Shown here: piece after piece, positions 4,062 through 50,572 of the stretch
Layout of the letters: every line of letters starts with the position of its first letter
How positions within the stretch are numbered: position 1 is the stretch's first letter
Source: a virus
Reading direction: 5' to 3' (one strand)
Length of the DNA stretch: 64,000 nucleotides
Virus record (IMG/VR): IMGVR_UViG_3300020122_000057
Span: 6,827 to 70,826 of that record
Position numbers and translations under genes: made by a program
Notes under the pieces: model-generated
Told to the model about the DNA's origin: nothing
What the model saw: the letters and a program-made list of their open reading frames with translations, nothing else
Databases searched by the model: none

Positions 4062-4240
4062 TTCGCGTCATACCTCCTCATCCTCAATTCCCTCTTTGCT
4101 TCCTGTAATCGTGCATTATCCTCCGGCGAATTGAGAATGGACATTGTACTCAACGCCCGGACCATATTCTTCAATTCCCATGTAGCACGCGCAAGCATAG
4201 GTCTTCCCAGTCGCCTAGCGTCGTCCTGAATTGTTGACAT
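4058..4240 (-). CDS. hypothetical protein
   Basis: 60 aa, ATGA overlap with the next gene. Confidence 0.6.
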   Translation of the reverse strand: MSTIQDDARRLGRPMLARATWELKNMVRALSTMSILNSPEDNARLQEAKRELRMRRYDAK

Positions 4241-4387
4241 TATCCTTTGGCCTTTCCCATACCAGCGTGATACCGCTTACCAGTACGATAAGTACGATAA
4301 CTGCTATCGTGAGCATGTTCCCTCATTTTCCGACACGCATAGAGCGTATCATCGGAGAATCCTGTCACAATTCCCCTGTGATACGTT

Positions 4388-4762
4388 CTATTGCTTCACA
4401 TCCTCCGGTTTGCACGTCGCCTCAATCCATGCGCCATTGCTACCCTTAATCCTCACAGTGACGCGATTGCAATCCGTCTCTTGCTTCGCCAACAGAGTAA
4501 ATATCTCTTTGGCCGCCATCAGCGCCATTCGCTCACAACTCATAGCCTGCCACTTTTCCGCAAGCTTCCCGAAACGTTTCTCAAAGTAACTCCCAATGTA
4601 CTCGTTATTGAGTACGTATCCTTCAGGGGTTAACCGTGTGTCATTCGCGTCAATCTTCACATACCAATGATAAACGCGCGTTCTCATGGCCGCACACTTG
4701 CACGGGTTAACTATCATATTCGTTGCGTGTGTCTTGCCGCTACGTTCAAGACTCAATTGCAT
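4388..4762 (-). CDS. QueD/PTPS-like T-fold protein (divergent)
   Basis: LTPEGYVLNN and SCERMA resemble the QueD G.v.Df and t.EnlA segments; the His motifs are not evident. Confidence 0.4.
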   Translation of the reverse strand: MQLSLERSGKTHATNMIVNPCKCAAMRTRVYHWYVKIDANDTRLTPEGYVLNNEYIGSYFEKRFGKLAEKWQAMSCERMALMAAKEIFTLLAKQETDCNRVTVRIKGSNGAWIEATCKPEDVKQ

Positions 4763-42573: not shown

Positions 42574-42648
42574 TGGAGCCAAGTGGCTGAATCGAACAGC
42601 CGTTTGTGAGGTACAAGCTCACCGTAATAACCACTATACCAACTAGGC
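42574..42648 (-). tRNA. tRNA-Thr(TGT)
   Basis: cloverleaf; anticodon arm GTGAG-CTTGTAC-CTCAC; encoded CCA. Confidence 0.9.
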
Positions 42649-42650
42649 TT

Positions 42651-42724
42651 TGGTGCGGTCAGAGGGAATCGAACCCTCATTACCCGGTAGAGAGCCGGGA
42701 ATTTTGCCATTAAACTATGGCCGC
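42651..42724 (-). tRNA. tRNA-Glu(CTC), atypical U37
   Basis: CCCGG-CTCTCTA-CCGGG; CCA. Confidence 0.8.
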
Positions 42725-42730
42725 GAAATT

Positions 42731-42804
42731 TGGAGCAGATTCAAGGAATCGAACCTTGATAACGTGCTTACCAAGCACGCGCACTGCCATTGTGCTAAAC
42801 CTGC
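42731..42804 (-). tRNA. tRNA-Thr(GGT)
   Basis: CGTGC-TTGGTAA-GCACG; CCA. Confidence 0.9.
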
Positions 42805-42806
42805 TT

Positions 42807-42880
42807 TGGAGGTGGATGTGGGAGTCGAACCCACTACAATCGGGTTGCAGCCGACTAACTAACCGTTCGTCTTACCCACC
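42807..42880 (-). tRNA. tRNA-Cys(GCA)
   Basis: GTCGG-CTGCAAC-CCGAT; U73, CCA. Confidence 0.88.
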
Positions 42881-43041
42881 CAAAATATTTCCCTACCAAG
42901 AGTATGAATCTTCTCCGCCAGTTCTCTATACTCATCCGTCCACTTACCAACTGGCAGCTTCTTGGTCAGAGCCTTTAATTCGTGGAAGGCGCGTTCCGCT
43001 TCAGCGAAACGATCCATCCAGTATTTGGTTTCTTCGTTCAT
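42859..43041 (-). CDS. small hypothetical protein within the tRNA array
   Basis: 60-aa helical ORF filling the gap between tRNAs; its stop lies inside tRNA-Cys. Confidence 0.55.
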   Translation of the reverse strand: MNEETKYWMDRFAEAERAFHELKALTKKLPVGKWTDEYRELAEKIHTLGREIFWVGKTNG

Positions 43042-43046
43042 AATAT

Positions 43047-43121
43047 TGGAGCACAGTGTTGGACTTGAACCAACGTTGCCGCTTTACGAGAGCGGAGTCG
43101 TACCATCTGGACCAACCGTGC
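43047..43121 (-). tRNA. tRNA-Thr(CGT)
   Basis: CCGCT-CTCGTAA-AGCGG; CCA. Confidence 0.9.
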
Positions 43122-43122
43122 T

Positions 43123-43196
43123 TGGAGCGAAGCCACGGATTTGCACCGAGACTTTTTGCTTGGAAGGCAAAAGTGCTGCTATTACACCAGCCTCGC
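43123..43196 (-). tRNA. tRNA-Gly(TCC)
   Basis: TTTGC-CTTCCAA-GCAAA; U73, CCA. Confidence 0.88.
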
Positions 43197-43595
43197 TTTC
43201 ATACGTCTGTAAGTGCGTTCTGCATGACAATTAGCGCAAACAATCTCGCACTTTTCAATCTCTTCTAAAATCACTGTTCTAGCTCTAAAGCGAACTATAT
43301 TGGATAAGTTACCTATCTTTTTCCCGCGTACATGGTCGAAATGCATAATCCAAGGAGCGTATTTAACCTTACAATCAATACACGGCCTGTCCTTAAAGGT
43401 ATTCATCCATTTGACTTGTCGTTTTTCTCTTGCTTTAGCGCCAGCTACATATCTACTTTTATTCCTGAGATAATGTTTACGATGATATTTTTTAGCGCAG
43501 GGCTTACAAATATCCCGGAAACCATCTATCTTTTTCGCATTCTTATGAAATTCCGAAAATTCTTTGCTTTGTTTACACTTTCCACATTGTTTCAT
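43182..43595 (-). CDS. HNH endonuclease
   Basis: PCIDC..FDHVRGKK..EIEKCEIVCANCH. Confidence 0.88.
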   Translation of the reverse strand: MKQCGKCKQSKEFSEFHKNAKKIDGFRDICKPCAKKYHRKHYLRNKSRYVAGAKAREKRQVKWMNTFKDRPCIDCKVKYAPWIMHFDHVRGKKIGNLSNIVRFRARTVILEEIEKCEIVCANCHAERTYRRMKARLV

Positions 43596-43616
43596 ACTTC
43601 CAGTATATCACATATT

Positions 43617-43691
43617 TGGAGGTCAGGGACGGAATCCAACCGTCATTAATGCCTTCGGAGGGCATTGTCCTGTGCATTGAACGACCCAACC
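43617..43691 (-). tRNA. tRNA-Arg(CCG)
   Basis: ATGCC-CTCCGAA-GGCAT; T-loop TTGGATT; CCA. Confidence 0.85.
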
Positions 43692-43697
43692 TCAAAC

Positions 43698-43772
43698 TGG
43701 AGTCCCCCGTCAGAATTGGACTGACCTCTCAGGTTTCGTAGACCTGCGCTCTGTCCGATGAGCTAGAGGGAC
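43698..43772 (-). tRNA. tRNA-Arg(ACG)
   Basis: CAGGT-CTACGAA-ACCTG; T-loop TCCAATT; CCA. Confidence 0.88.
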
Positions 43773-44101
43773 GAATTTCTTCTTTTATCAGTGCGAATTC
43801 TGTGGCAATTAGCACACGTTATTTCGCACTTTTTAATTTCTTTAAGAAGGGCCTTCATAGGCACTTTATCGTAGTGACTGCTGATACTAAAAAGTTTCTT
43901 TCCTCTTACGTGGTCGAAATCCATACAAATCGGAGGAAATTTCTTTTTACAATCAACACAACGCTTCTTTTTGAACGGAAGAATTACTTCAGTGTAAATT
44001 TTCTTCTTCCGAACTTTACTCTTCTTAAAATAGACTGCTTTGTTAGCGTAATAGTTTCGCTTCGAAGCAGCACGTCTGTCTTCTATTTGAGAGTAAGCCA
44101 T
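43763..44101 (-). CDS. HNH endonuclease
   Basis: CVDC..MDFDHVRGKK..EIKKCEITCANCH. Confidence 0.88.
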   Translation of the reverse strand: MAYSQIEDRRAASKRNYYANKAVYFKKSKVRKKKIYTEVILPFKKKRCVDCKKKFPPICMDFDHVRGKKLFSISSHYDKVPMKALLKEIKKCEITCANCHRIRTDKRRNSSL

Positions 44102-44110
44102 TAAAAAGTT

Positions 44111-44181
44111 TCCGGCAGTCGGGTAGACGCGAGTGCTGAACTCGTGTGGACCCTCGTCGTCAGCAACGACTTACTACCGAA
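44111..44181 (-). ncRNA. small three-way-junction RNA with complementary loops
   Basis: closing stem TTCGGTAGT/ACTGCCGGA; hairpin apices TGCTGA and TCAGCA are exact reverse complements. Confidence 0.6.
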
Positions 44182-44222
44182 ATTTGAATCCCCGCATGTC
44201 AATCCATGCGCCCCCTAGAAAA

Positions 44223-44266
44223 TGGTCACTCTACGTCCGCGCAAGGCTCGCGTGAGTTTCCGGGAC
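44223..44266 (-). ncRNA. small pseudoknot-like RNA ending in ACCA
   Basis: GTCC/GGAC, ACTC/GAGT and an internal CGCGA/TTGCG hairpin. Confidence 0.35.
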
Positions 44267-44272
44267 TGATAT

Positions 44273-44347
44273 TGGTACGCCGCCGAGGAATCGAACCTCG
44301 CTAGCTTGCGTGTAGGGCAAGTGCATGAGCCTATCTGCCAGCAGCGT
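44273..44347 (-). tRNA. tRNA-Val(TAC), C33
   Basis: CTTGC-CCTACAC-GCAAG; CCA. Confidence 0.85.
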
Positions 44348-44350
44348 AAA

Positions 44351-44426
44351 GGAGTCCGAATCCAATGTCCCTGAGAACCGGACCCCGGTTGAAGTTCAAA
44401 GCTTGGGATAGGGCTAGCTTCAACCG
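44351..44426 (-). ncRNA. two-hairpin structured spacer RNA
   Basis: CGGTTGAAG/CTTCAACCG and GGGTCCG/CGGACTC stems; loops contain TCCC or CCCT versus AGGGA. Confidence 0.45.
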
Positions 44427-44434
44427 TTCTATTC

Positions 44435-44508
44435 TGGAGCGAAGCACGGGAATCGAACCCGTCTTTAATCGTTGGCAACGATTCGTACTGCCAATGTACG
44501 AGCCTCGC
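44435..44508 (-). tRNA. tRNA-Gly(GCC)
   Basis: AATCG-TTGCCAA-CGATT; CCA. Confidence 0.92.
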
Positions 44509-44514
44509 AAAATC

Positions 44515-44587
44515 TGGTAACGGAGGTGAGAGTTGAACTCACGGAGGTCTGCTTATGAGACAGACTTGAATACCCATTCTCCCCGTT
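44515..44587 (-). tRNA. tRNA(CAT), Met or Ile2, non-canonical fold
   Basis: GTCTGT-CTCATAA-GCAGAC; 1-nt connector, 4-nt D-loop; CCA. Confidence 0.8.
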
Positions 44588-44750
44588 AAACTTTCTTAAA
44601 ACCCTTCATTTGAAGCCACTGATCGGAATTTCGTTGCTTTTCCGTCTCAGAGCAAATCTTATTAAAGTTCTTTCGTATCTCGCTTCCGTGCATTGGACGC
44701 TCCCAACGTTCATTGCCCCGGATAATAACCGCTGTCATCTTCACAGCCAT
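44586..44750 (-). CDS. small hypothetical protein within the tRNA array
   Basis: 54-aa ORF MAVKMTAVIIRG... exactly fills the gap between two tRNAs. Confidence 0.5.
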   Translation of the reverse strand: MAVKMTAVIIRGNERWERPMHGSEIRKNFNKICSETEKQRNSDQWLQMKGFKKV

Positions 44751-44756
44751 AAAATT

Positions 44757-44833
44757 TGGTGCGCCGCCTCCGATTCGAACGGAGAAGAATTCGGGTTTGA
44801 GCCGAATATGTCTGCCAGTTGCATCAGCAGCGC
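44757..44833 (-). tRNA. tRNA-Leu(CAA), short variable region
   Basis: TTCGG-CTCAAAC-CCGAA; A73, CCA. Confidence 0.85.
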
Positions 44834-44839
44834 GAAAAT

Positions 44840-44915
44840 TGGTAGTGGTGGATGGATTCGAACCATCTGCCTTTCCCTTATCGGGGGAACGCGCATCCAC
44901 ATGGGCCTCACCACT
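44840..44915 (-). tRNA. tRNA-Ile(GAT), C33
   Basis: TTCCC-CCGATAA-GGGAA; CCA. Confidence 0.85.
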
Positions 44916-44917
44916 AT

Positions 44918-45012
44918 TGGTACTCGCCGTAGGAGTTGAACCTACTCGGCACCGCTAATCGGGCGGCAATCCAAGGTTTATAAAACCTCGCTGCATACCG
45001 ATGCTGACGAGT
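44918..45012 (-). tRNA. tRNA-Ile(TAT) with a second anticodon-like arm (GAT)
   Basis: GAGGT-TTTATAA-ACCTT plus GCCGC-CCGATTA-GCGGT in the variable position; CCA. Confidence 0.8.
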
Positions 45013-45019
45013 ATTAAAT

Positions 45020-45095
45020 TGGGGTGTCCCCTTGGGTTCGAACCAAGATAGGCGGATTCACAGTCCGGCGTCTTAACCAGTTAGACTAAGGACAC
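45020..45095 (-). tRNA. tRNA-His(GTG)
   Basis: CGGA-CTGTGAA-TCCG; C73, CCA; genomic -1 is T. Confidence 0.9.
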
Positions 45096-45102
45096 ACAAA
45101 AT

Positions 45103-45188
45103 TGGAGGAAGATAGACGAATCGAACGCCCATCCTTTCGGATGCCTCCGGGTTCAAACCGGATCGCCCACCATTGAGCGGTACCTTCC
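45103..45188 (-). tRNA. tRNA-Ser(TGA) with 8/4 (allo-tRNA-like) fold
   Basis: 8-bp acceptor GGAAGGTA/TATCTTCC, 4-bp T-stem GGCG/CGTC, TCCGG-TTTGAAC-CCGGA, long variable arm. Confidence 0.8.
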
Positions 45189-45189
45189 T

Positions 45190-45277
45190 TGGCGGAAACG
45201 GCAGGATTTGAACCTGCGATACCTTTCGGTACTCCACGTTAGCAGTGTGGCGCTTTAAGCCTCTCAGCCACGTTTCC
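45190..45277 (-). tRNA. tRNA-Ser(GCT)
   Basis: loop CTGCTAA, long variable arm, G73, CCA. Confidence 0.92.
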
Positions 45278-45288
45278 ACAAAAATTTT

Positions 45289-45363
45289 TGGTGGGCCTAT
45301 CAGGACTCGAACCTGAATTCTCCGATTAAGAGTCGGTACTTCTGCCTATTGAATTATAGGCCC
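45289..45363 (-). tRNA. tRNA-Lys(CTT)
   Basis: CCGA-CTCTTAA-TCGG; CCA. Confidence 0.92.
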
Positions 45364-45373
45364 ACGTTAAATT

Positions 45374-45449
45374 TGGCTGGTACCCTCGGACTCGAACCGA
45401 GACCCTAGGCATTAACAGTGCCCTATCCTGCCATTTAGACCAGATACCA
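45374..45449 (-). tRNA. tRNA-Asn(GTT)
   Basis: GGGCA-CTGTTAA-TGCCT; G73, CCA. Confidence 0.9.
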
Positions 45450-45459
45450 GTAGAAACTT

Positions 45460-46113
45460 TTACTTCTGCGATTGTACCAAATTATCGTCGTCTTCGTCAA
45501 GCGCTTCTTGTTTCTGTTGCGCCGTAAATCCCTGATAATCGCCAGTGCTCTTATACGACGTAAGGGTTGCGCTCAGTGAACGAGTCGAACTTGCAGTTCC
45601 CGCAGCCGACGTTGCAAAACTCATGGCGTTTGATGCCGCGATATTATACTGTGCCGCCGTCAACACCGCATCCTGATTCGCACCAAGGAAGATAAATTCC
45701 CACTTGTACTTATCGTGCTGCTCGGTAATGAGTTTCTTTACCGTAGCCGCGCTGTGTTCCTTAGAAGCGTTCTCGTAACCATCGGTGATAATCACGATAG
45801 CAACCTTGTTTGGTCGCTGACTCTCATCGCGCTTCGCCAGTTCCGCGCCGATATCGAGAATTGTCTTCCCAATGGCATCGTGCAATGCCGTCGATCCGCG
45901 AGGATGAATCGTGTGCTTTGGTGCATCCTTAATGTTGGTACGGAATACTGGTTCGTACACGTCATCAAATTGGAACAGAGCTAACTCGCACTCCTGCGGG
46001 TCTTGTTTCTGCTTGTTGATGAACTCGTCCAGTGCCGTCTGCATATTATTCAAGCAGCTTCCAATGGAACCAGAACGATCCAAAACTAACCCAATTAATG
46101 TAGCATCCTTCAC
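45460..46113 (-). CDS. von Willebrand factor A domain protein
   Basis: MIDAS LDRSGS, GSTALHDAIG, IITDGYENAS, FIFLGAN. Confidence 0.9.
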   Translation of the reverse strand: MKDATLIGLVLDRSGSIGSCLNNMQTALDEFINKQKQDPQECELALFQFDDVYEPVFRTNIKDAPKHTIHPRGSTALHDAIGKTILDIGAELAKRDESQRPNKVAIVIITDGYENASKEHSAATVKKLITEQHDKYKWEFIFLGANQDAVLTAAQYNIAASNAMSFATSAAGTASSTRSLSATLTSYKSTGDYQGFTAQQKQEALDEDDDNLVQSQK

Positions 46114-46133
46114 TGTACTTCCTCCTTAGAAAA

Positions 46134-46207
46134 TGGTCGAGGAGGAGTGAGTCGAACACTCGCCGCTGGCTTCCGACGCCAGCAGACTTCCGTTATCAGA
46201 CTCCTCG
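46134..46207 (-). tRNA. tRNA-Pro(CGG)
   Basis: CTGGC-GTCGGAA-GCCAG; C1-G72, A73. Confidence 0.85.
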
Positions 46208-46210
46208 ATT

Positions 46211-46287
46211 TGGTACTCGCGGCGGGATTCGAACCCGCGTTCTTGGCTTGAAAGGCCAGCGTCCTAGGCCGACTAGACGACATGAGC
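46211..46287 (-). tRNA. tRNA-Glu(TTC)
   Basis: TGGC-CTTTCAA-GCCA; CCA. Confidence 0.9.
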
Positions 46288-46296
46288 ACTTACATT

Positions 46297-46370
46297 TGGC
46301 GGGGCCGAGGGGAATCAAACCCCCGTTCTTCGAGCGACAGTCGAGCGTCTTGTCGCTAGACGACGACCCC
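46297..46370 (-). tRNA. tRNA-Asp(GTC)
   Basis: TCGA-CTGTCGC-TCGA; G73, CCA. Confidence 0.88.
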
Positions 46371-46376
46371 TAAGAT

Positions 46377-46451
46377 TGGTGGACAATGCGGGACTCGAAC
46401 CCGCAACTCCTCGGTGCAAGCGAGGCGTTTTCCCATTAGCACTAATCGCCC
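46377..46451 (-). tRNA. tRNA-Ala(TGC)
   Basis: CCTCG-CTTGCAC-CGAGG; G3:U70. Confidence 0.92.
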
Positions 46452-46456
46452 AAATT

Positions 46457-46532
46457 TGGTGGCATACCTCAGATTCGAACTGAGACAACCCTGCTCCCAA
46501 AGCAGGTGGGCTGGCCATTACCCTAGTACGCC
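46457..46532 (-). tRNA. tRNA-Pro(TGG)
   Basis: CCTGC-TTTGGGA-GCAGG; CCA. Confidence 0.88.
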
Positions 46533-46901
46533 GTGAACTCGTTTTTCATATTCCAGTATAGCATGGCAGTTAGCGCATAATACATCGCATTTTTCCATCT
46601 CTGCTAATACTGACTTCCAAGAATAATTTCTACTATCCGCCAATCTAAATTTCTTCTCTGACGGAATCCTATGATGAAACTCTAATGCGGTATGGTGTAA
46701 ATCAAAACCACATTTCTTACAGCCCTTAGTAAGTTTTACTTCTCGAATTTTTCCTTGTATCTTATCTCTATATCGCTTATCCCGCAACTTTCTAGTAGTT
46801 CTATTGTACTTATGAAGGCTTTCCTTAAAATTTTTACTAGATAAGTACGCTTGCCCCTTTTCGGACTTAATCCACTTTCTTTGATTCTCAATACGACCCA
46901 T
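46518..46901 (-). CDS. HNH endonuclease
   Basis: CKKCG..ALEFHH..PSEK..EMEKCDVLCANCH. Confidence 0.88.
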   Translation of the reverse strand: MGRIENQRKWIKSEKGQAYLSSKNFKESLHKYNRTTRKLRDKRYRDKIQGKIREVKLTKGCKKCGFDLHHTALEFHHRIPSEKKFRLADSRNYSWKSVLAEMEKCDVLCANCHAILEYEKRVHGVLG

Positions 46902-46905
46902 TTTT

Positions 46906-47160
46906 GGTTAGTTGATAGCCCGGTTTCTGTACTCAATATATGAGTGACAATCATTCATCTAACGCATCCAACCCGATAACCAAATGCCTAGGGCCAGTAG
47001 TTATCCTATTTGGACTTGCTCCCGGCGTGGAGTCATTTAGAGAAATACTCTAACTCTTACCCGTCACATTACTGTGCCTGCAACTTCCACAGCGCCGTTA
47101 CCCTTTGGAGACCGGAACTTCCTCCCCCATCTTCCGATGGCAGCGATTGTCTAACTAACC
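46906..47160 (-). ncRNA. rnpB: RNase P RNA, minimal (~255 nt)
   Basis: Hallmarks GAGGAAGTTCCGGTCTCC, GGAGCAAGTCCAAATAGG, AGATGAATGATTGTC and ACAGAAACCGGGCTATC; P1-P6, P15, P16 and P19 can be paired. Confidence 0.92.
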
Positions 47161-47166
47161 AAATTC

Positions 47167-47273
47167 TGGAGCAGCGAGTGGGACTCGAACCCACATGCAA
47201 CGAGTTTAGGAAACTCGCGCCTAAGAGGAGCCTGTTTAGAAGACAGGTGCCTATTCCATTCAGCCACCGCTGC
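47167..47273 (-). tRNA. tRNA-Arg(TCT) with a second complete anticodon arm (CCT)
   Basis: CCTGT-CTTCTAA-ACAGG then CGAGT-TTCCTAA-ACTCG inside one acceptor/D/T frame; 107 nt. Confidence 0.85.
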
Positions 47274-47281
47274 TCAAATCT

Positions 47282-47356
47282 TGGCGAGTCACGGTGGACT
47301 TGAACCACCACCAGCAGGGTTGGAGCCTGCCATGCTGCCACTAACACTTGCGACTC
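47282..47356 (-). tRNA. tRNA-Trp(CCA)
   Basis: GCAGG-CTCCAAC-CCTGC; G73. Confidence 0.9.
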
Positions 47357-47364
47357 GCAAATTC

Positions 47365-47439
47365 TGGTTGCCCCAGTAGGACTCGAACCTACATGAACGC
47401 CTTCAGAGGGCGTCATCCTGCCAATTAGATGACAGGGCA
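47365..47439 (-). tRNA. tRNA-Gln(CTG)
   Basis: ACGCC-CTCTGAA-GGCGT; U1-A72. Confidence 0.9.
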
Positions 47440-47441
47440 AT

Positions 47442-47517
47442 TGGTTCGGTGGGTACGATTCGAACGTACACCTAAGTGATTCAAAGTCACCCGTTCTACC
47501 AGTTAAACTACCGCCGA
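47442..47517 (-). tRNA. tRNA-Gln(TTG)
   Basis: GGTGA-CTTTGAA-TCACT; U1-A72. Confidence 0.9.
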
Positions 47518-47526
47518 ACAGAAACT

Positions 47527-47602
47527 TGGTGGACCGCCCGAGACTTGAACTCAGACCCCAGCGCTTAAAAGGCGCGTATGCTGCCACTCGCACTCGCAGT
47601 CC
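47527..47602 (-). tRNA. tRNA-Lys(TTT)
   Basis: GCGC-CTTTTAA-GCGC; CCA. Confidence 0.88.
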
Positions 47603-47608
47603 AAAAAC

Positions 47609-47697
47609 TGGTGGAGGGGGAAGGATTCGAACCTTCATAACCCAATGGGCAATCGGTGTTACAGACCGACGGGGCCACCTGTTGCCCCAACCTCTCC
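47609..47697 (-). tRNA. tRNA-Tyr(GTA)
   Basis: TCGGT-CTGTAAC-ACCGA, variable arm, 5-bp D-stem. Confidence 0.88.
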
Positions 47698-47707
47698 ACG
47701 AAACTTA

Positions 47708-47758
47708 GCGACGTGTTATCTGGCTTCAACGTCGTTCCACTCCAAGACCAGAGAGTGT
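47708..47758 (-). ncRNA. two-hairpin kissing-loop spacer RNA
   Basis: CACTC/GAGTG and CGACGT/ACGTCG hairpins; loops TCTGGtCTT and AAGCCAGA are complementary. Confidence 0.55.
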
Positions 47759-47765
47759 TCGAATT

Positions 47766-47849
47766 TGGTACCCCGCGAGGGATTTGAACCCCCATGCCTT
47801 TCGGCGCTGCGTTCTAAGCGCAGTGTGTCTGCCGTTCCACCAGCAGGGT
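47766..47849 (-). tRNA. tRNA-Leu(TAG)
   Basis: CTGCG-CTTAGAA-CGCAG, variable arm. Confidence 0.92.
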
Positions 47850-47851
47850 AT

Positions 47852-47926
47852 TGGTGGTCAACCAAGGAATTGAACCTTGTACGCGCACGGCTTCAACGTG
47901 CCGCTCTACCGATGAGCTAGATGACC
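47852..47926 (-). tRNA. tRNA-Phe(GAA)
   Basis: GCACG-TTGAAGC-CGTGC. Confidence 0.9.
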
Positions 47927-47935
47927 ACGAAACTT

Positions 47936-48013
47936 TGGTGGGCAAGGTCGGAGTCGAACCGACAGGCACTCCGTTTTAAGCGGAGTAGGTATGCCAATTC
48001 CCTTCACTTACCC
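47936..48013 (-). tRNA. tRNA-Leu(TAA), short variable region
   Basis: CTCCG-CTTAAAA-CGGAG; A73. Confidence 0.85.
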
Positions 48014-48664: not shown

Positions 48665-50572
48665 CTACCCATCTATCGTCTCCTGATCTGCCCAGTTCAA
48701 ACCCCGAGTCACATCAACAGGAATTTTCATACCCGGAATCTCTGGTATTTCAATCTCCATACACTCACGAATCCATTTCTTAACTTCTCTTGGGTCATAG
48801 CATGAATCGACTACATATGTCAACTCGTCATGTATTTGCAAAGTAGGAATAAGCCGTGGATGATTCTCAGCGTTAACCATCGCATATTTCGTTATATGCG
48901 CTACTGGGTTACTTCCCCACATAGCCGCAGCCGTCTTCAATCTATCTTGTTCATAGCCATAACTAGCTAGTACATATCCCGTGGGTGGCCGCACGCAACG
49001 TTCACGCTCAACTTGCTTAGTAATTTTCTTCTGCAATTCCCGCAATAGCGGGAATCCATTGAAATACTTCACCTGCACATCCAATGCTCGCTTGCGATTC
49101 TCGTAGGTTGCACTGCCGAATGCACGATTGGCTAGGTTGATTCCGGTGAACGTTACAACCTTTCCAAACACTATCCAATCGTTAAACACGATTCTCGCCC
49201 CGGCTGCGATTTCGTTTACAATCTTCGGTCTACGCAACTCCGCTGGCTCGACTAGCTGCAATCCCTCCAGATAATCCGTAGCGTGCGTAACAGACTTCGC
49301 CGCTTCGCGTGCATTACCCAATATCCGCGCAAACGGGTCATCCTCTTTTATTCCAATCATATCCCGCATATAGGCGTGGAAGTCTATATTGGGAATCTCC
49401 GTATGCCCCGCTAGATGGAGGAAGACTCGGTTCTCGGCATTCTTGAGGTCGGCGCGGTAAAGGTAATATCCATCTGGAGCGATAATAGCTCGCCGGATTT
49501 TCTTCCCAAGGGACTCTCCTGTAACGCGATCCTTGCGACGTTTAGCAACGTTCTGAAGATTCGGGTTTGAACAAGCCAGTCTTCCGGTGGAAGTAAAAAA
49601 TTGCAGGTTGCAATGGATGAATCCGTCAGGGTCAACGTATCCTTCCCATCTATTTTTATCGTAATCGAATCTCCGGGGTGCAAACCAGCGGTCAGGTCCA
49701 TTTCCTAGCTCCTTGTATTCAAGCAATCTCGCTAATTCTTCGTTGTCCGGGTCATCCTCGCATGCTTCCCGAATCGTTTCTTCTTGGGCGTTGGGAAGCT
49801 TGAAACGCTCCATTACCTGCTTGGGAGAGTTTGGATTAAACGAGAACGTCTTCTCCAACTTCTCGCATTCAGTAACGAACTCATCTCGTAACTTACCAAT
49901 ATACGGTACATCTACTAGCACGCCCCGCTCATTCATCTTCGCAAGAACGAGTGCAACGTCACGGTGTAAAGGAATGAGCTTATCAACACCCATGAGAATA
50001 GCGCGTTGTAGGATTTTGGGGGCTGCGAGAGCAGGCCAATAGCAATCGTTACCATTGTACTCAAAAGGATTATGGCGAGGACACGGATTACCCAAACTTT
50101 CGCACGACTCTCCCCAACAATCTTTCCAATTTGGCGCATCGGTGTATTGCGAGCACATGGTCCAGAGATTCATAAATCCCCGGCCACGTCGCTCTCCCTC
50201 CTCGTCATCTGACTTCTTCGTTCCCTTACACAGACTCATATTCGTGAGCCAGTGATAATGGATCGTGTCCATTATTTGCTTGGGGTCGATTCGGATTCCT
50301 TCTGCAACTGCCACACCATAATCGGCGCTAAGGAAGTTATGCCCAACAATAATTGCTTGCGGATTTCGGTAGAGAGTTTCAATGAGATAGTGTTTCCCTT
50401 CTTCGTGCGGTACAGATACAGTTCTTTCTCCGTCTGAGGCTCCAACAATCGTGGGTCGAGAAGTTCGCATGCTCCATTCCCAGTCCAGAGATAGATACGG
50501 CTTGGGGCGAAGCTGAAGTAAATCGCTGGGATTCCGGGAGACGTAGGGCCATTTCTTAGCGACGGAGAACAT
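48665..50572 (-). CDS. DNA polymerase, family A, with 3'-5' exonuclease
   Basis: SLDWEW, VGHN, TGRLACSNPNLQN, motif A ADLKNAENR, motif B REAAKSVTHATDY, motif C QIHDEL. Confidence 0.93.
   Translation of the reverse strand: MFSVAKKWPYVSRNPSDLLQLRPKPYLSLDWEWSMRTSRPTIVGASDGERTVSVPHEEGKHYLIETLYRNPQAIIVGHNFLSADYGVAVAEGIRIDPKQIMDTIHYHWLTNMSLCKGTKKSDDEEGERRGRGFMNLWTMCSQYTDAPNWKDCWGESCESLGNPCPRHNPFEYNGNDCYWPALAAPKILQRAILMGVDKLIPLHRDVALVLAKMNERGVLVDVPYIGKLRDEFVTECEKLEKTFSFNPNSPKQVMERFKLPNAQEETIREACEDDPDNEELARLLEYKELGNGPDRWFAPRRFDYDKNRWEGYVDPDGFIHCNLQFFTSTGRLACSNPNLQNVAKRRKDRVTGESLGKKIRRAIIAPDGYYLYRADLKNAENRVFLHLAGHTEIPNIDFHAYMRDMIGIKEDDPFARILGNAREAAKSVTHATDYLEGLQLVEPAELRRPKIVNEIAAGARIVFNDWIVFGKVVTFTGINLANRAFGSATYENRKRALDVQVKYFNGFPLLRELQKKITKQVERERCVRPPTGYVLASYGYEQDRLKTAAAMWGSNPVAHITKYAMVNAENHPRLIPTLQIHDELTYVVDSCYDPREVKKWIRECMEIEIPEIPGMKIPVDVTRGLNWADQETIDG

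What the first reader, a model, noticed from the sequence alone, without database searches (positions are those of the whole stretch)
47167..47273. tRNA-Arg with two complete anticodon arms (UCU and CCU) in one molecule
Seen: one acceptor stem, D-arm, T-arm and CCA enclose two 5-bp/7-nt anticodon stem-loops, CCUGU-CU[UCU]AA-ACAGG (47231-47247) and CGAGU-UU[CCU]AA-ACUCG (47201-47217). Both loops have U33 and A37-A38, and both anticodons read Arg (AGA, AGG). The stems differ in sequence, so this is not a recent tandem duplication. The 13-nt linker contains UUAGG, complementary to the second loop (CCUAA), which suggests a masked/unmasked switch. No standalone Arg(CCU) gene exists in the array. 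Inference: a bi-anticodon tRNA acting by alternative folding, by processing into either isoacceptor, or as a decoy/backup against host anticodon nucleases. I do not recognise this as a described tRNA class.
Basis: partly seen in the sequence, partly recalled or inferred. Interest (0 to 1): 0.92.

Follow-up and report, generated by a model that had tools for sequence, protein, structure and literature searches.

The report
Phage arginine tRNA with two anticodon arms
A soil phage and at least five other uncultured phages carry one arginine tRNA gene that holds two complete codon-reading arms, one for each of the two rare arginine anticodons, a conserved design I could not find described and whose way of working is still unproven.

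Summary
At 47167-47273 (- strand), one acceptor stem, D arm, T arm and CCA enclose two 5-bp/7-nt hairpins with loops CUUCUAA (UCU) and UUCCUAA (CCU). I found five more distinct members in other uncultured phage contigs (L016, L013, L049, L058=L059, L067). Across the six, 150 of 150 stem cells pair, and all 5 pairs of the second arm show compensatory changes. Both loops keep Y32-U33-N34-C35-U36-A37-M38. Every gene has exactly one UCU and one CCU: the window has UCU then CCU, the other five CCU then UCU. In the three arrays seen over enough length (window, L058, L067), it is the only AGA/AGG decoder found. A second copy of the D-stem 3' strand (AGGC) sits one base before arm 2 in all six, while the spacer before it shrinks from 8 to 2 nt. 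This allows a second cloverleaf with arm 2 in the anticodon position. Best reading (about 0.4): one gene supplies both AGR isoacceptors by switching between two folds. Main rival: only one arm decodes. There are no expression data. Six literature searches found no precedent. The scan's earlier notes hold no such gene on other DNA.

The parts
47267..47273 (-). Acceptor stem, 5' strand (RNA positions 1-7)
   Evidence: Pairs with 47171-47177. Across six members, 6 of 7 acceptor pairs change on both sides and all cells are paired.
47261..47264 (-). D-stem 5' strand GCUG (positions 10-13). It can pair with either of the two AGGC copies.
   Evidence: Columns 10-12 pair with 23-25 in 18 of 18 cells and with 53-55 in 18 of 18 cells. 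Among five members, apart from GUU in the T arm, it is the only conserved partner for 53-55.
47253..47260 (-). D loop AAUGGAAU with G18 G19 and A20
   Evidence: An A follows GG in all six members. A20 is listed as the main bacterial Arg determinant (PMC9976931, passages).
47248..47252 (-). D-stem 3' strand, copy 1 (AGGC), plus A26
   Evidence: This segment has 3 of 5 invariant columns in six members; it is AAGC in L049 and L067.
47231..47247 (-). Arm 1: CCUGU-CUUCUAA-ACAGG, anticodon UCU at 47238-47240
   Evidence: Rfam places it as the anticodon arm. 3 of 5 pairs are compensatory. It is identical (17 of 17) to the anticodon arm of a canonical tRNA-Arg(UCU) in L083.
47223..47230 (-). Variable spacer CUCCUCUU (alignment columns 44-51)
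   Evidence: 0 of 8 columns invariant, mean pairwise identity 0.30, length 2-8 nt among six members.
47218..47222 (-). D-stem 3' strand, copy 2 (AGGC), plus G at the position-26 equivalent, one base before arm 2
   Evidence: AGGC is invariant in 6 of 6; the segment has 4 of 5 invariant columns and identity 0.88. It pairs with columns 10-12 in 18 of 18 cells.
47201..47217 (-). Arm 2: CGAGU-UUCCUAA-ACUCG, anticodon CCU at 47208-47210
   Evidence: 5 of 5 pairs are compensatory and all cells are paired. The loop has 4 of 7 invariant columns and identity 0.83, equal to loop 1. It matches 15 of 17 nt of the arm of a canonical tRNA-Arg(CCU) in L112.
47195..47200 (-). Variable loop UUGCAU (5-6 nt in the family)
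   Evidence: The single-arm relative in L063 has a 6-nt loop at the same place.
47178..47194 (-). T arm GUGGG-UUCGAGU-CCCAC
   Evidence: 3 of 5 pairs are compensatory.
47167..47177 (-). Acceptor 3' strand, discriminator U73 (47170) and encoded CCA (47167-47169)
   Evidence: The array's Arg(ACG) and Arg(CCG) genes also have U73, and all 31 array tRNAs printed end in CCA.

Best explanation
This is a working phage tRNA-Arg whose anticodon module (D-stem 3' strand, position 26, anticodon arm, variable loop; 30 nt) is present twice in tandem. Both 7-nt loops are kept as true AGR anticodon loops, one UCU and one CCU. Most likely the single gene supplies both AGR isoacceptors. The D-stem 5' strand pairs with either AGGC copy. 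With copy 1, arm 1 is the anticodon arm and module 2 sticks out like a long variable arm (fold A). With copy 2, arm 2 is the anticodon arm, followed by a normal 5-6-nt variable loop, and module 1 loops out of the D loop (fold B). Shown: the architecture, its conservation, covariation of both arms, anticodon-loop rules kept in both loops, one UCU plus one CCU in every member, and a conserved second D 3' strand. Inferred: Arg charging, use of both loops on the ribosome, and the fold switch.
For: Six distinct members: the window, L016, L013, L049, L058 (=L059) and L067. 150 of 150 stem cells pair; compensatory changes occur in 5/5 arm-2, 3/5 arm-1, 6/7 acceptor and 3/5 T-stem pairs; 0 of 500 shuffles reach any measure, and slid controls fall to 30-48% paired. 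Loop 2 is as conserved as loop 1 (identity 0.83 each; T loop 0.80), while the arm-2 stem strands are at 0.39. Every member holds one UCU and one CCU. The window has them in the opposite order on an arm 1 that is clearly orthologous (CCYGY stem after GCAC), so two wobble changes, or an arm exchange, kept the complement. C32 accompanies UCU in 6 of 6; U32 accompanies CCU in 3 of 6. The arms match the anticodon arms of standalone canonical Arg tRNAs. AGGC before arm 2 is invariant at a fixed 1-nt distance while the spacer before it varies from 2 to 8 nt with 0 of 8 invariant columns. So the only segment needed in neither fold is the only free one (partner check on five members). Extending arm 2 (54-56 with 75-77) fails in L049 and L058, so that pairing does not explain AGGC. 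With the four fixed helices enforced, the predicted ensemble gives the fold-B D stem 0.63 in L013, 0.21 in the window, 0.15 in L058, 0.09 in L016 and 0.004 in L049. The arrays of the window, L058 and L067 have separate U34 and C34 genes for Gln, Lys and Glu (also Leu UUR in the window and L058) and no other AGR decoder, so the set is complete only if both arms count. The four phage stretches with CCU in arm 1 that I counted still use AGA for 45-66% of AGR codons (L067 not counted). Arg identity: A20, C35, U36 and U73 (A73 in L067) fit the bacterial determinants. AGA encodes PolA R331 and R460 (15 of 15 homologues have R) and R544 (13 of 15).
Against: There are no expression, charging or decoding data; no RNA run was listed. 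The fold-B D stem never changes on both sides (2 pairs never vary, 1 varies on one side), so it is permitted but not proven. As bare secondary structures, fold B is 2.3-3.2 kcal/mol less stable than fold A in the three sequences computed, and 3.7-6.1 less than fold A with the arm-2 extension. In L049 its predicted share is 0.004. Other phages solve the same need with two genes (L112 tandem UCU+CCU; L007 and L014), so no need for fusion is evident. Other phage Arg tRNAs carry variable arms with GNRA loops that cannot decode (L087, L106), which shows an extra arm can serve another purpose. Whether a ribosome accepts a 30-nt insertion in the D loop is unknown. Five of the six members share one order, perhaps by descent, so the 'one of each' rule rests on few independent events.
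Confidence: 0.42

Rival explanations
1. Only the arm in the canonical position (arm 1, fold A) decodes. Arm 2 is a long variable arm kept for another job: a bait or decoy for a protein that reads Arg anticodon loops (a host anticodon nuclease, ArgRS, or a modification enzyme), or a mark that distinguishes phage tRNA from host tRNA.
For: Rfam's tRNA model and nearest-neighbour energies prefer fold A. Extra variable arms without anticodon likeness occur in other phage tRNAs: Arg(CCG) and Arg(ACG) in L087 and L106, Asn(GUU) in L013. A decoy for a loop-reading protein would also keep U33, C35, U36 and A37. Phage tRNAs that counter tRNA-cutting defences are an active topic (search listing only).
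Against: This reading leaves five of six phages with only a CCU decoder, although the four counted use AGA for 45-66% of AGR codons. It does not explain why each gene keeps one U34 and one C34, nor the swap in the window. It does not explain the invariant AGGC one base before arm 2 (partner check on five members). No RNA ligase or repair enzyme was found among the 28 window ORFs scanned, which are only part of the genome.
Confidence: 0.33
2. The 107-nt RNA is a precursor. One 30-nt module is removed by cutting and rejoining, which gives either a ~77-nt tRNA-Arg(UCU) or a ~77-nt tRNA-Arg(CCU).
For: In the three closest members (window, L016, L013) the two modules are exact 30-nt tandem units in register (columns 20-49 and 50-79). 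Removing either would leave a canonical tRNA like the 77-nt single-arm relative in L063.
Against: No intron family matched at E<=1. No ligase or splicing nuclease was found among the 28 ORFs scanned. In L049 and L067 the first module is shortened, so the units are no longer equal. I know of no such splicing in phage tRNAs (recalled).
Confidence: 0.08
3. It is a relic: a deletion fused two tandem Arg genes (as in L112), or a 30-nt duplication occurred, and the product is inert or barely functional.
For: A tandem Arg(UCU)+Arg(CCU) pair with similar frames exists in L112. HNH homing endonuclease genes in the array could drive rearrangements.
Against: Six diverged members keep every helix through compensatory changes, keep both loops, and keep the gene as the sole AGR decoder in the three arrays seen over enough length, all of which cover nearly all other codon boxes.
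Confidence: 0.05
4. It is a recoding tRNA, like an allo-tRNA: the long variable arm makes SerRS (or another synthetase) charge it, so AGA/AGG are read as something other than Arg.
For: Allo-tRNAs combine a long V-arm with anticodons for AGA/AGG and AUA and come from soil bacteria. U73 or G73 plus a long V-arm is said to suggest Ser identity (PMC5389517, passages).
Against: The acceptor/T branch is 7/5, not 8/4 or 9/3, and the D arm is ordinary. U73 is shared with this array's Arg(ACG) and Arg(CCG). AGA encodes invariant PolA arginines. A20, C35 and U36 fit ArgRS.
Confidence: 0.04

Closest known systems
[quoted passage not shown]
   Same: In fold A the extra hairpin leaves the core between the anticodon arm and the T arm, where long variable arms sit. 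The ribosome and EF-Tu accept such arms (established knowledge, recalled).
   Different: The amino acid is Arg. The extra region is 24-30 nt between the end of arm 1 and the variable loop, and its hairpin is a full 5-bp/7-nt anticodon arm that obeys anticodon-loop rules and carries the partner isoacceptor's anticodon. It is preceded by a second D-stem 3' strand.
Allo-tRNAs (Mukai et al., PMC5389517; review PMC7609411; passages and one section read)
   Same: Noncanonical long-V-arm tRNAs from soil microbes, with frequent anticodons for AUA and AGA/AGG; some occur in phage tRNA clusters.
   Different: They are defined by an 8/4 or 9/3 acceptor/T branch and a Sec-like D arm and are charged with Ser or Ala. 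This gene is 7/5 with a normal D arm and Arg determinants, and AGA means Arg here.
Tandem standalone phage tRNA-Arg(UCU) and tRNA-Arg(CCU) genes (L112 2553-2712); canonical single-arm relative (L063 2217-2293)
   Same: Same two anticodons and near-identical anticodon arms (window arm 2 is 15/17 to L112's CCU arm; arm 1 is 17/17 to L083's UCU arm). L063 shares the 5' half of the frame.
   Different: Those are two complete 76-nt genes, or one 77-nt gene. Here both arms share one acceptor stem, D arm, T arm and CCA.
'Rewired' phage tRNA-Arg with the D-arm half behind the anticodon arm (earlier scan note e1-4040528; candidates L005, L007 12964-13044, L014 4513-4592)
   Same: These are phage AGR-reading tRNAs in which a helix built from the D-stem position encloses an anticodon arm. 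That resembles arm 1 enclosed by the D stem in fold B. In L007 and L014 such a gene supplies CCU next to a normal UCU gene.
   Different: They have one anticodon arm and no normal D arm. The two-arm gene has a normal D arm plus a second module.
Pocketknife tRNA hypothesis (Seligmann; seen only as cited in PMC4501094) and opposite-strand 'mirror' mitochondrial tRNAs (bioRxiv 10.1101/2025.11.12.688142, abstract read)
   Same: Both hold that one tRNA or one locus could serve more than one anticodon.
   Different: The pocketknife idea concerns ordinary D and T loops of mitochondrial tRNAs, and the citing paper says direct evidence is lacking. Mirror tRNAs are two RNAs made from opposite strands. 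Neither has two anticodon arms in one RNA.

Membership tests
tRNA (Rfam RF00005) | Cloverleaf with a 7-bp acceptor stem, D arm, anticodon arm and 5-bp T arm with a UUCRA-type loop, scoring above the gathering score | tested here: met
   48.5 bits against a gathering score of 29, model positions 1-71 of 71, with a 33-nt insertion in the variable region. L013 scores 50.0 and L016 44.0 bits.
Bacterial-type tRNA-Arg (ArgRS substrate) | Identity determinants A20, C35, U/G36 and A/G/U73 (PMC9976931, Table 1 and Arg section) | tested here: met
   An A follows G18 G19 in 6 of 6. C35 and U36 are present in both loops of 6 of 6. Position 73 is U in 5 and A in 1.
Bacterial-type tRNA-Arg (ArgRS substrate) | Charged with arginine and used at AGA/AGG | not testable with these tools
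   Indirect only: AGA encodes invariant PolA arginines. No RNA holder was listed.
Class II (long variable arm) tRNA | A stem-loop between positions 44 and 48 | tested here: met
   In fold A arm 2 lies there, with 5/5 covarying pairs.
Class II (long variable arm) tRNA | Belongs to Leu, Ser, Tyr (bacteria) or Sec | tested here: not met
   The anticodons are UCU and CCU (Arg), with Arg determinants.
Allo-tRNA | 12-bp acceptor branch split 8/4 or 9/3 | tested here: not met
   7-bp acceptor and 5-bp T stem, all cells paired in six members.
Allo-tRNA | Sec-like D arm (long stem, tetraloop) | tested here: not met
   3-4-bp D stem with a 7-8-nt loop containing GG in five of six members (GC in L016).
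Allo-tRNA | Inserts Ser or Ala regardless of anticodon | tested here: inconclusive
   AGA sits at invariant Arg positions of PolA, which argues against this. There is no charging assay.
Intron-containing tRNA (group I intron or bulge-helix-bulge intron) | An insertion that matches an intron family or lies in the anticodon loop | tested here: not met
   No intron family matched at E<=1 in 46850-47300. The extra 30 nt lie after the anticodon arm and form a covarying hairpin.
Rewired D-arm phage tRNA-Arg (scan note e1-4040528) | No normal D arm; the D-stem 3' half lies behind the single anticodon arm | tested here: not met
   A normal D arm is present (columns 10-25) together with two anticodon arms. 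The neighbouring genes in L007 and L014 fit that class better.

The most novel reading that the evidence does not exclude
A single tRNA molecule carries two working anticodons. It flips between two cloverleafs by re-pairing a 3-4-bp D stem with one of two AGGC strands, so that either the UCU or the CCU arm is presented to the ribosome while the other module folds away. If an anticodon nuclease cuts one loop, the RNA might still work through the other, because the cut would then lie in a dispensable looped-out module.
Probability: 0.35. Interest if true: 0.95.

Novelty: new variant of a known kind. Interest (0 to 1): 0.85.

Why it matters
As far as I know (recalled), every described tRNA has one anticodon arm, and "one tRNA, one anticodon" is built into tRNA-finding software; ARAGORN missed 5 of the 6 members and miscalled L067 as 'tRNA-???'. 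A conserved natural tRNA that keeps two rule-abiding anticodon loops of two isoacceptors on one body poses a clear question with a cheap test: can one tRNA body present alternative anticodons? If it can, this would be a new way to compress a decoding set, a natural two-state tRNA for structural study, and a scaffold for engineered tRNAs. If it cannot, the second arm is a conserved anticodon-arm mimic whose binding partner, perhaps a defence nuclease or a synthetase, is worth finding. Either way, phage tRNA arrays from soil hold tRNA architectures that standard annotation skips.

Tried and rejected
Misassembly or chimera: rejected (six independent members).

Chance hairpins: rejected.

Extended arm 2 (54-56 with 75-77) as the reason for the conserved AGGC: 3 cells unpaired and 2 gapped, all in L049 and L058.

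Arm order versus AGA/AGG preference: no trend (window 139/84; L016 28/34; L013 15/16; L049 7/5; L058 29/15). L063, with the single UCU gene, has 32/5, but its GC is 0.40 against 0.48-0.54, and these are small stop-to-stop ORF sets.

Cellular genomes: the one genome contigs pattern scan gave 7 stretches, all tandem or coding repeats and none a tRNA. The pattern required AGGCR and YTYCTAA, so variants would be missed.

Cultured phages: blastn of 601 nt found no match. Blastn of the 107 nt matched 22 records, 0 with 80% cover or more.

Viral contig scans: 7 of 8 used. One search found 0. One search's L060-L062 are not tRNAs. One search matched 111 stretches, of which 80 loci were returned. I screened the 78 new ones with model R1 and found one new member. 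The other 31 stretches were not seen.

Whole-record search with R1: 0 of 2 records matched (the records behind L006 and L008); L019, L021 and L023 were not held and so not searched.

The L058, L059 and L063 records have no PolA match and are fragments (29%, 30% and 4% complete), so their relation to the window's clade is unknown.

Expression: no RNA holder was listed.

tRNA repair or ligase context: none among the 28 ORFs scanned in 3 searches. Most had no hit, and many ORFs were not scanned.

Literature: six searches gave no two-arm tRNA; one search found 0 papers. Subscription journals and supplements were not searchable. Supplementary Figures S5 and S6 of PMC5389517, which show irregular soil tRNAs, may bear on novelty.

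Earlier scan notes hold no two-arm gene on other DNA.

I built no in-silico module-deleted sequences.

Full report
WHAT IS THERE. The window lies in a complete 70,826-base virus record with direct terminal repeats. On the minus strand, 42574-48013 holds an array of tRNA genes: ARAGORN finds 32. Rfam's tRNA model adds one more at 47170-47273 (48.5 bits, gathering score 29). All 31 genes printed end in an encoded CCA, and the set covers all 20 amino acids. The extra gene is the finding. Read 5' to 3', it has:
- a 7-bp acceptor stem;
- a D arm (GCUG, loop AAUGGAAU, AGGC);
- A26;
- arm 1, CCUGU-CUUCUAA-ACAGG;
- a 13-nt linker, CUCCUCUUAGGCG;
- arm 2, CGAGU-UUCCUAA-ACUCG;
- UUGCAU;
- a standard T arm;
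- U73 and CCA.

Rfam aligns arm 1 as the anticodon arm and treats the next 33 nt as an insertion in the variable region.

NOT AN ARTEFACT. Logan contigs from three runs of three studies carry the stretch with no differences. Two contigs span both arms, and one bridges from the RNase P RNA into arm 2; the best holder may be the source sample. Within the array these are the only stem-flanked YU[U/C]CURN loops, so no other AGR decoder is hidden in the gaps.

RELATIVES. Arrays lie next to PolA in L007 (L017 is the same stretch), L013, L014, L016 and L049.

Homologues of the two-arm gene are in L016 (4111-4217), L013 (3755-3861) and L049 (1372-1471; 100 nt; PolA only 49% identical). Pattern scans of viral contigs added L058 (identical in L059; 106 nt) and L067 (100 nt; A73, no encoded CCA, a tightly packed array). 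That makes six distinct members.

One pattern scan of 185,579 species-representative genomes gave only repeats. No cultured phage record covers the gene.

CONSERVATION. On the six-member alignment A8:
- All 150 stem cells form standard pairs.
- Compensatory changes occur in 5 of 5 arm-2 pairs, 3 of 5 arm-1 pairs, 6 of 7 acceptor pairs and 3 of 5 T-stem pairs.
- No shuffle of 500 reaches any observed measure.
- Sliding the 3' partners drops pairing to 30-48%.

The alignment was fitted to a model built from three of the members, which favours the structure. However, the ungapped MAFFT alignment of those three gave 75 of 75 paired cells independently.

The arm-2 stem strands are only 0.39 identical on average, yet loop 2 has 4 of 7 invariant columns and 0.83 identity. 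That equals loop 1 (0.83) and slightly exceeds the T loop (0.80). Both loops always read Y32 U33 N34 C35 U36 A37 A/C38. L049 has C38 in both loops; L067 has it in loop 2 only.

ONE UCU AND ONE CCU. Every gene holds exactly one UCU and one CCU. The window has UCU in arm 1 and CCU in arm 2; the other five have the reverse. The window's arm 1 is orthologous to the others' arm 1 (CCYGY stem after GCAC). So the swap needed a change at both wobble positions, or an exchange of arms with other Arg genes. Either way, the complement was kept. C32 accompanies UCU in 6 of 6.

The arms are recognisable as real anticodon arms:
- Window arm 1 is 17/17 identical to the arm of a canonical tRNA-Arg(UCU) in L083.
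- Window arm 2 matches 15/17 nt of a canonical tRNA-Arg(CCU) in L112.
- L058 arm 1 equals the CCU arm of a separate gene in L014.

THE DECODING SET. The arrays of the window, L058 and L067 have separate U34 and C34 genes for Gln, Lys and Glu, and for Leu UUR in the window and L058. None has any other AGR decoder. L063 carries a 77-nt single-arm Arg(UCU) with the same 5' half, and it encodes only the U34 forms. The window uses AGA 124 times and AGG 67 times among 936 Arg codons. The four arm-1-CCU stretches counted use AGA for 45-66% of AGR codons.

IDENTITY. A20, C35, U36 and U73 fit the bacterial Arg determinants listed in PMC9976931. The array's Arg(ACG) and Arg(CCG) genes also have U73. AGA encodes the invariant PolA arginines R331 and R460 (15 of 15 homologues) and R544 (13 of 15). 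So a Ser-inserting, allo-tRNA-like role is unlikely. The acceptor/T branch is 7/5, not 8/4 or 9/3.

A SECOND CLOVERLEAF. The gene is a tandem repeat of a 30-nt module: D-stem 3' strand, position 26, anticodon arm, variable loop. In the window, L016 and L013 the modules occupy columns 20-49 and 50-79.

The second AGGC is invariant in six of six and always one base before arm 2. The spacer before it has no invariant column, 0.30 identity, and a length of 2 to 8 nt. In L049 and L067 the first copy has drifted to AAGC while the second is still AGGC.

Among five members, the only conserved partners for its GGC are the D-stem 5' strand (columns 10-12) and GUU inside the T arm. Pairing 10-12 with 53-55 holds in 18 of 18 cells but shows no change on both sides. 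An alternative, extending arm 2 by 54-56 with 75-77, fails in L049 and L058.

So every segment needed in fold A or fold B is conserved, and the one segment needed in neither is free to vary.

As bare secondary structures, fold B is 2.3-3.2 kcal/mol less stable than fold A. With the four fixed helices enforced, the predicted share of the fold-B D stem is 0.63 (L013), 0.21 (window), 0.15 (L058), 0.09 (L016) and 0.004 (L049).

From what is known of tRNA tertiary structure (recalled, my inference), positions 21-22 and 45-48 are neighbours in the core. The spare module would therefore project from about the same place in either fold.

READING. I think the gene is a working tRNA-Arg and that both loops are under selection as AGR anticodon loops. 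The most likely mechanism is a two-state tRNA that serves as both isoacceptors (0.42). The main rival is a one-anticodon tRNA whose extra arm is an anticodon-arm mimic with another role (0.33). That rival fits the energetics, and it fits the GNRA-capped variable arms of other phage Arg tRNAs (L087, L106). It does not explain the one-UCU-one-CCU rule, the swap, or the second AGGC. Processing (0.08), relic (0.05) and recoding (0.04) are less likely. Nothing here shows expression, charging or decoding.

ORIGIN. L112 has tandem canonical Arg(UCU) and Arg(CCU) genes with similar frames, 8 nt apart. L007 and L014 have an odd CCU gene followed by a normal UCU gene. A deletion joining two such genes, or a 30-nt internal duplication of an L063-like gene, could both give the two-arm form. 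HNH endonuclease genes lie in the array.

NOVELTY. Six full-text searches found no tRNA with two anticodon arms. The nearest items are:
- allo-tRNAs (PMC5389517, passages read; PMC7609411, one section read);
- the untested pocketknife idea (seen only as cited in PMC4501094);
- opposite-strand mirror tRNAs (abstract of 10.1101/2025.11.12.688142).

Supplementary figures were closed. Earlier notes of this scan describe other odd phage tRNAs, but no two-arm gene on other DNA.

Noticed in passing
window 46900-47162 (-): A bacterial class A RNase P RNA hit (131.8 bits, all 367 model positions, but only 263 nt) starts 5 nt after the CCA of the two-arm tRNA. No such hit lies in L013, L014 or L016 at E<=0.1.
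   Followed up: partly
window 44918-45012 (-); L007 13127-13217; L014 4675-4763; L016 4412-4503; L049 1668-1758: A 89-95-nt tRNA-Ile(UAU) family with a covarying variable-region hairpin whose 7-nt loop is always centred on GAU (CCGAUUA, CAGAUUA, UAGAUCG, CUGAUUA twice). The loops lack U33 and have a pyrimidine at the position-37 equivalent, so they are not true anticodon loops, and no second D 3' strand is evident. It may be an IleRS bait or an allo-tRNA(UAU)-like body.
   Followed up: partly
L007 12964-13044; L014 4513-4592; L005 124-208 (-): Arg CCU/UCU tRNA-like genes without a normal D arm. A CGG/CCG helix encloses the anticodon arm, and a conserved UAAYYGGAC tail follows. In L007 and L014 this gene supplies CCU just before a normal Arg(UCU). 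It resembles the 'rewired' tRNA-Arg of scan note e1-4040528.
   Followed up: partly
window 46518-46901 (-) and 43182-43595 (-): ORFs inside the tRNA array match HNH endonuclease families (PHROGs, E 2e-24 and 1e-28). They had no Pfam hit at E<=0.01.
   Followed up: partly
L013 2871-2958; L087 2697-2782; L106 4114-4199 and 9416-9503; L007 13868-13956: Other over-long phage tRNAs with extra variable arms that do not resemble anticodon arms: Asn(GUU) with a UUCG-capped hairpin, and Arg(CCG) and Arg(ACG) with GNRA-capped hairpins. A long Pro(UGG) (89 nt) was not parsed.
   Followed up: no
L112 2553-2712 (also L114 656-815): Tandem canonical tRNA-Arg(UCU) and tRNA-Arg(CCU) genes with similar frames, 8 nt apart, in the same order as the window's two arms. 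This is a possible ancestral state of the fused gene.
   Followed up: partly
L016 about 4224-4400; L049 about 1478-1660: A small conserved ORF of about 60 codons lies directly after the two-arm gene and before tRNA-Ile(UAU) in both contigs. It is absent at this place in the window.
   Followed up: no
L016 4010-4110: A spacer of about 100 nt between Arg(CCG) and the two-arm gene is closed by a 7-bp stem (GGGACAG/CUGUCCC). It may be another small structured RNA.
   Followed up: no
window 47069-47638 (-): A mechanical 189-codon ORF runs across five tRNA genes and part of the RNase P RNA. I take it as spurious.
   Followed up: no
window PolA codon 448 (within 48665-50572, -): One AGA codon aligns with Ser in 10 of 15 homologues. 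AGA at three conserved Arg positions outweighs it, and AGA is one base from AGC/AGU.
   Followed up: no
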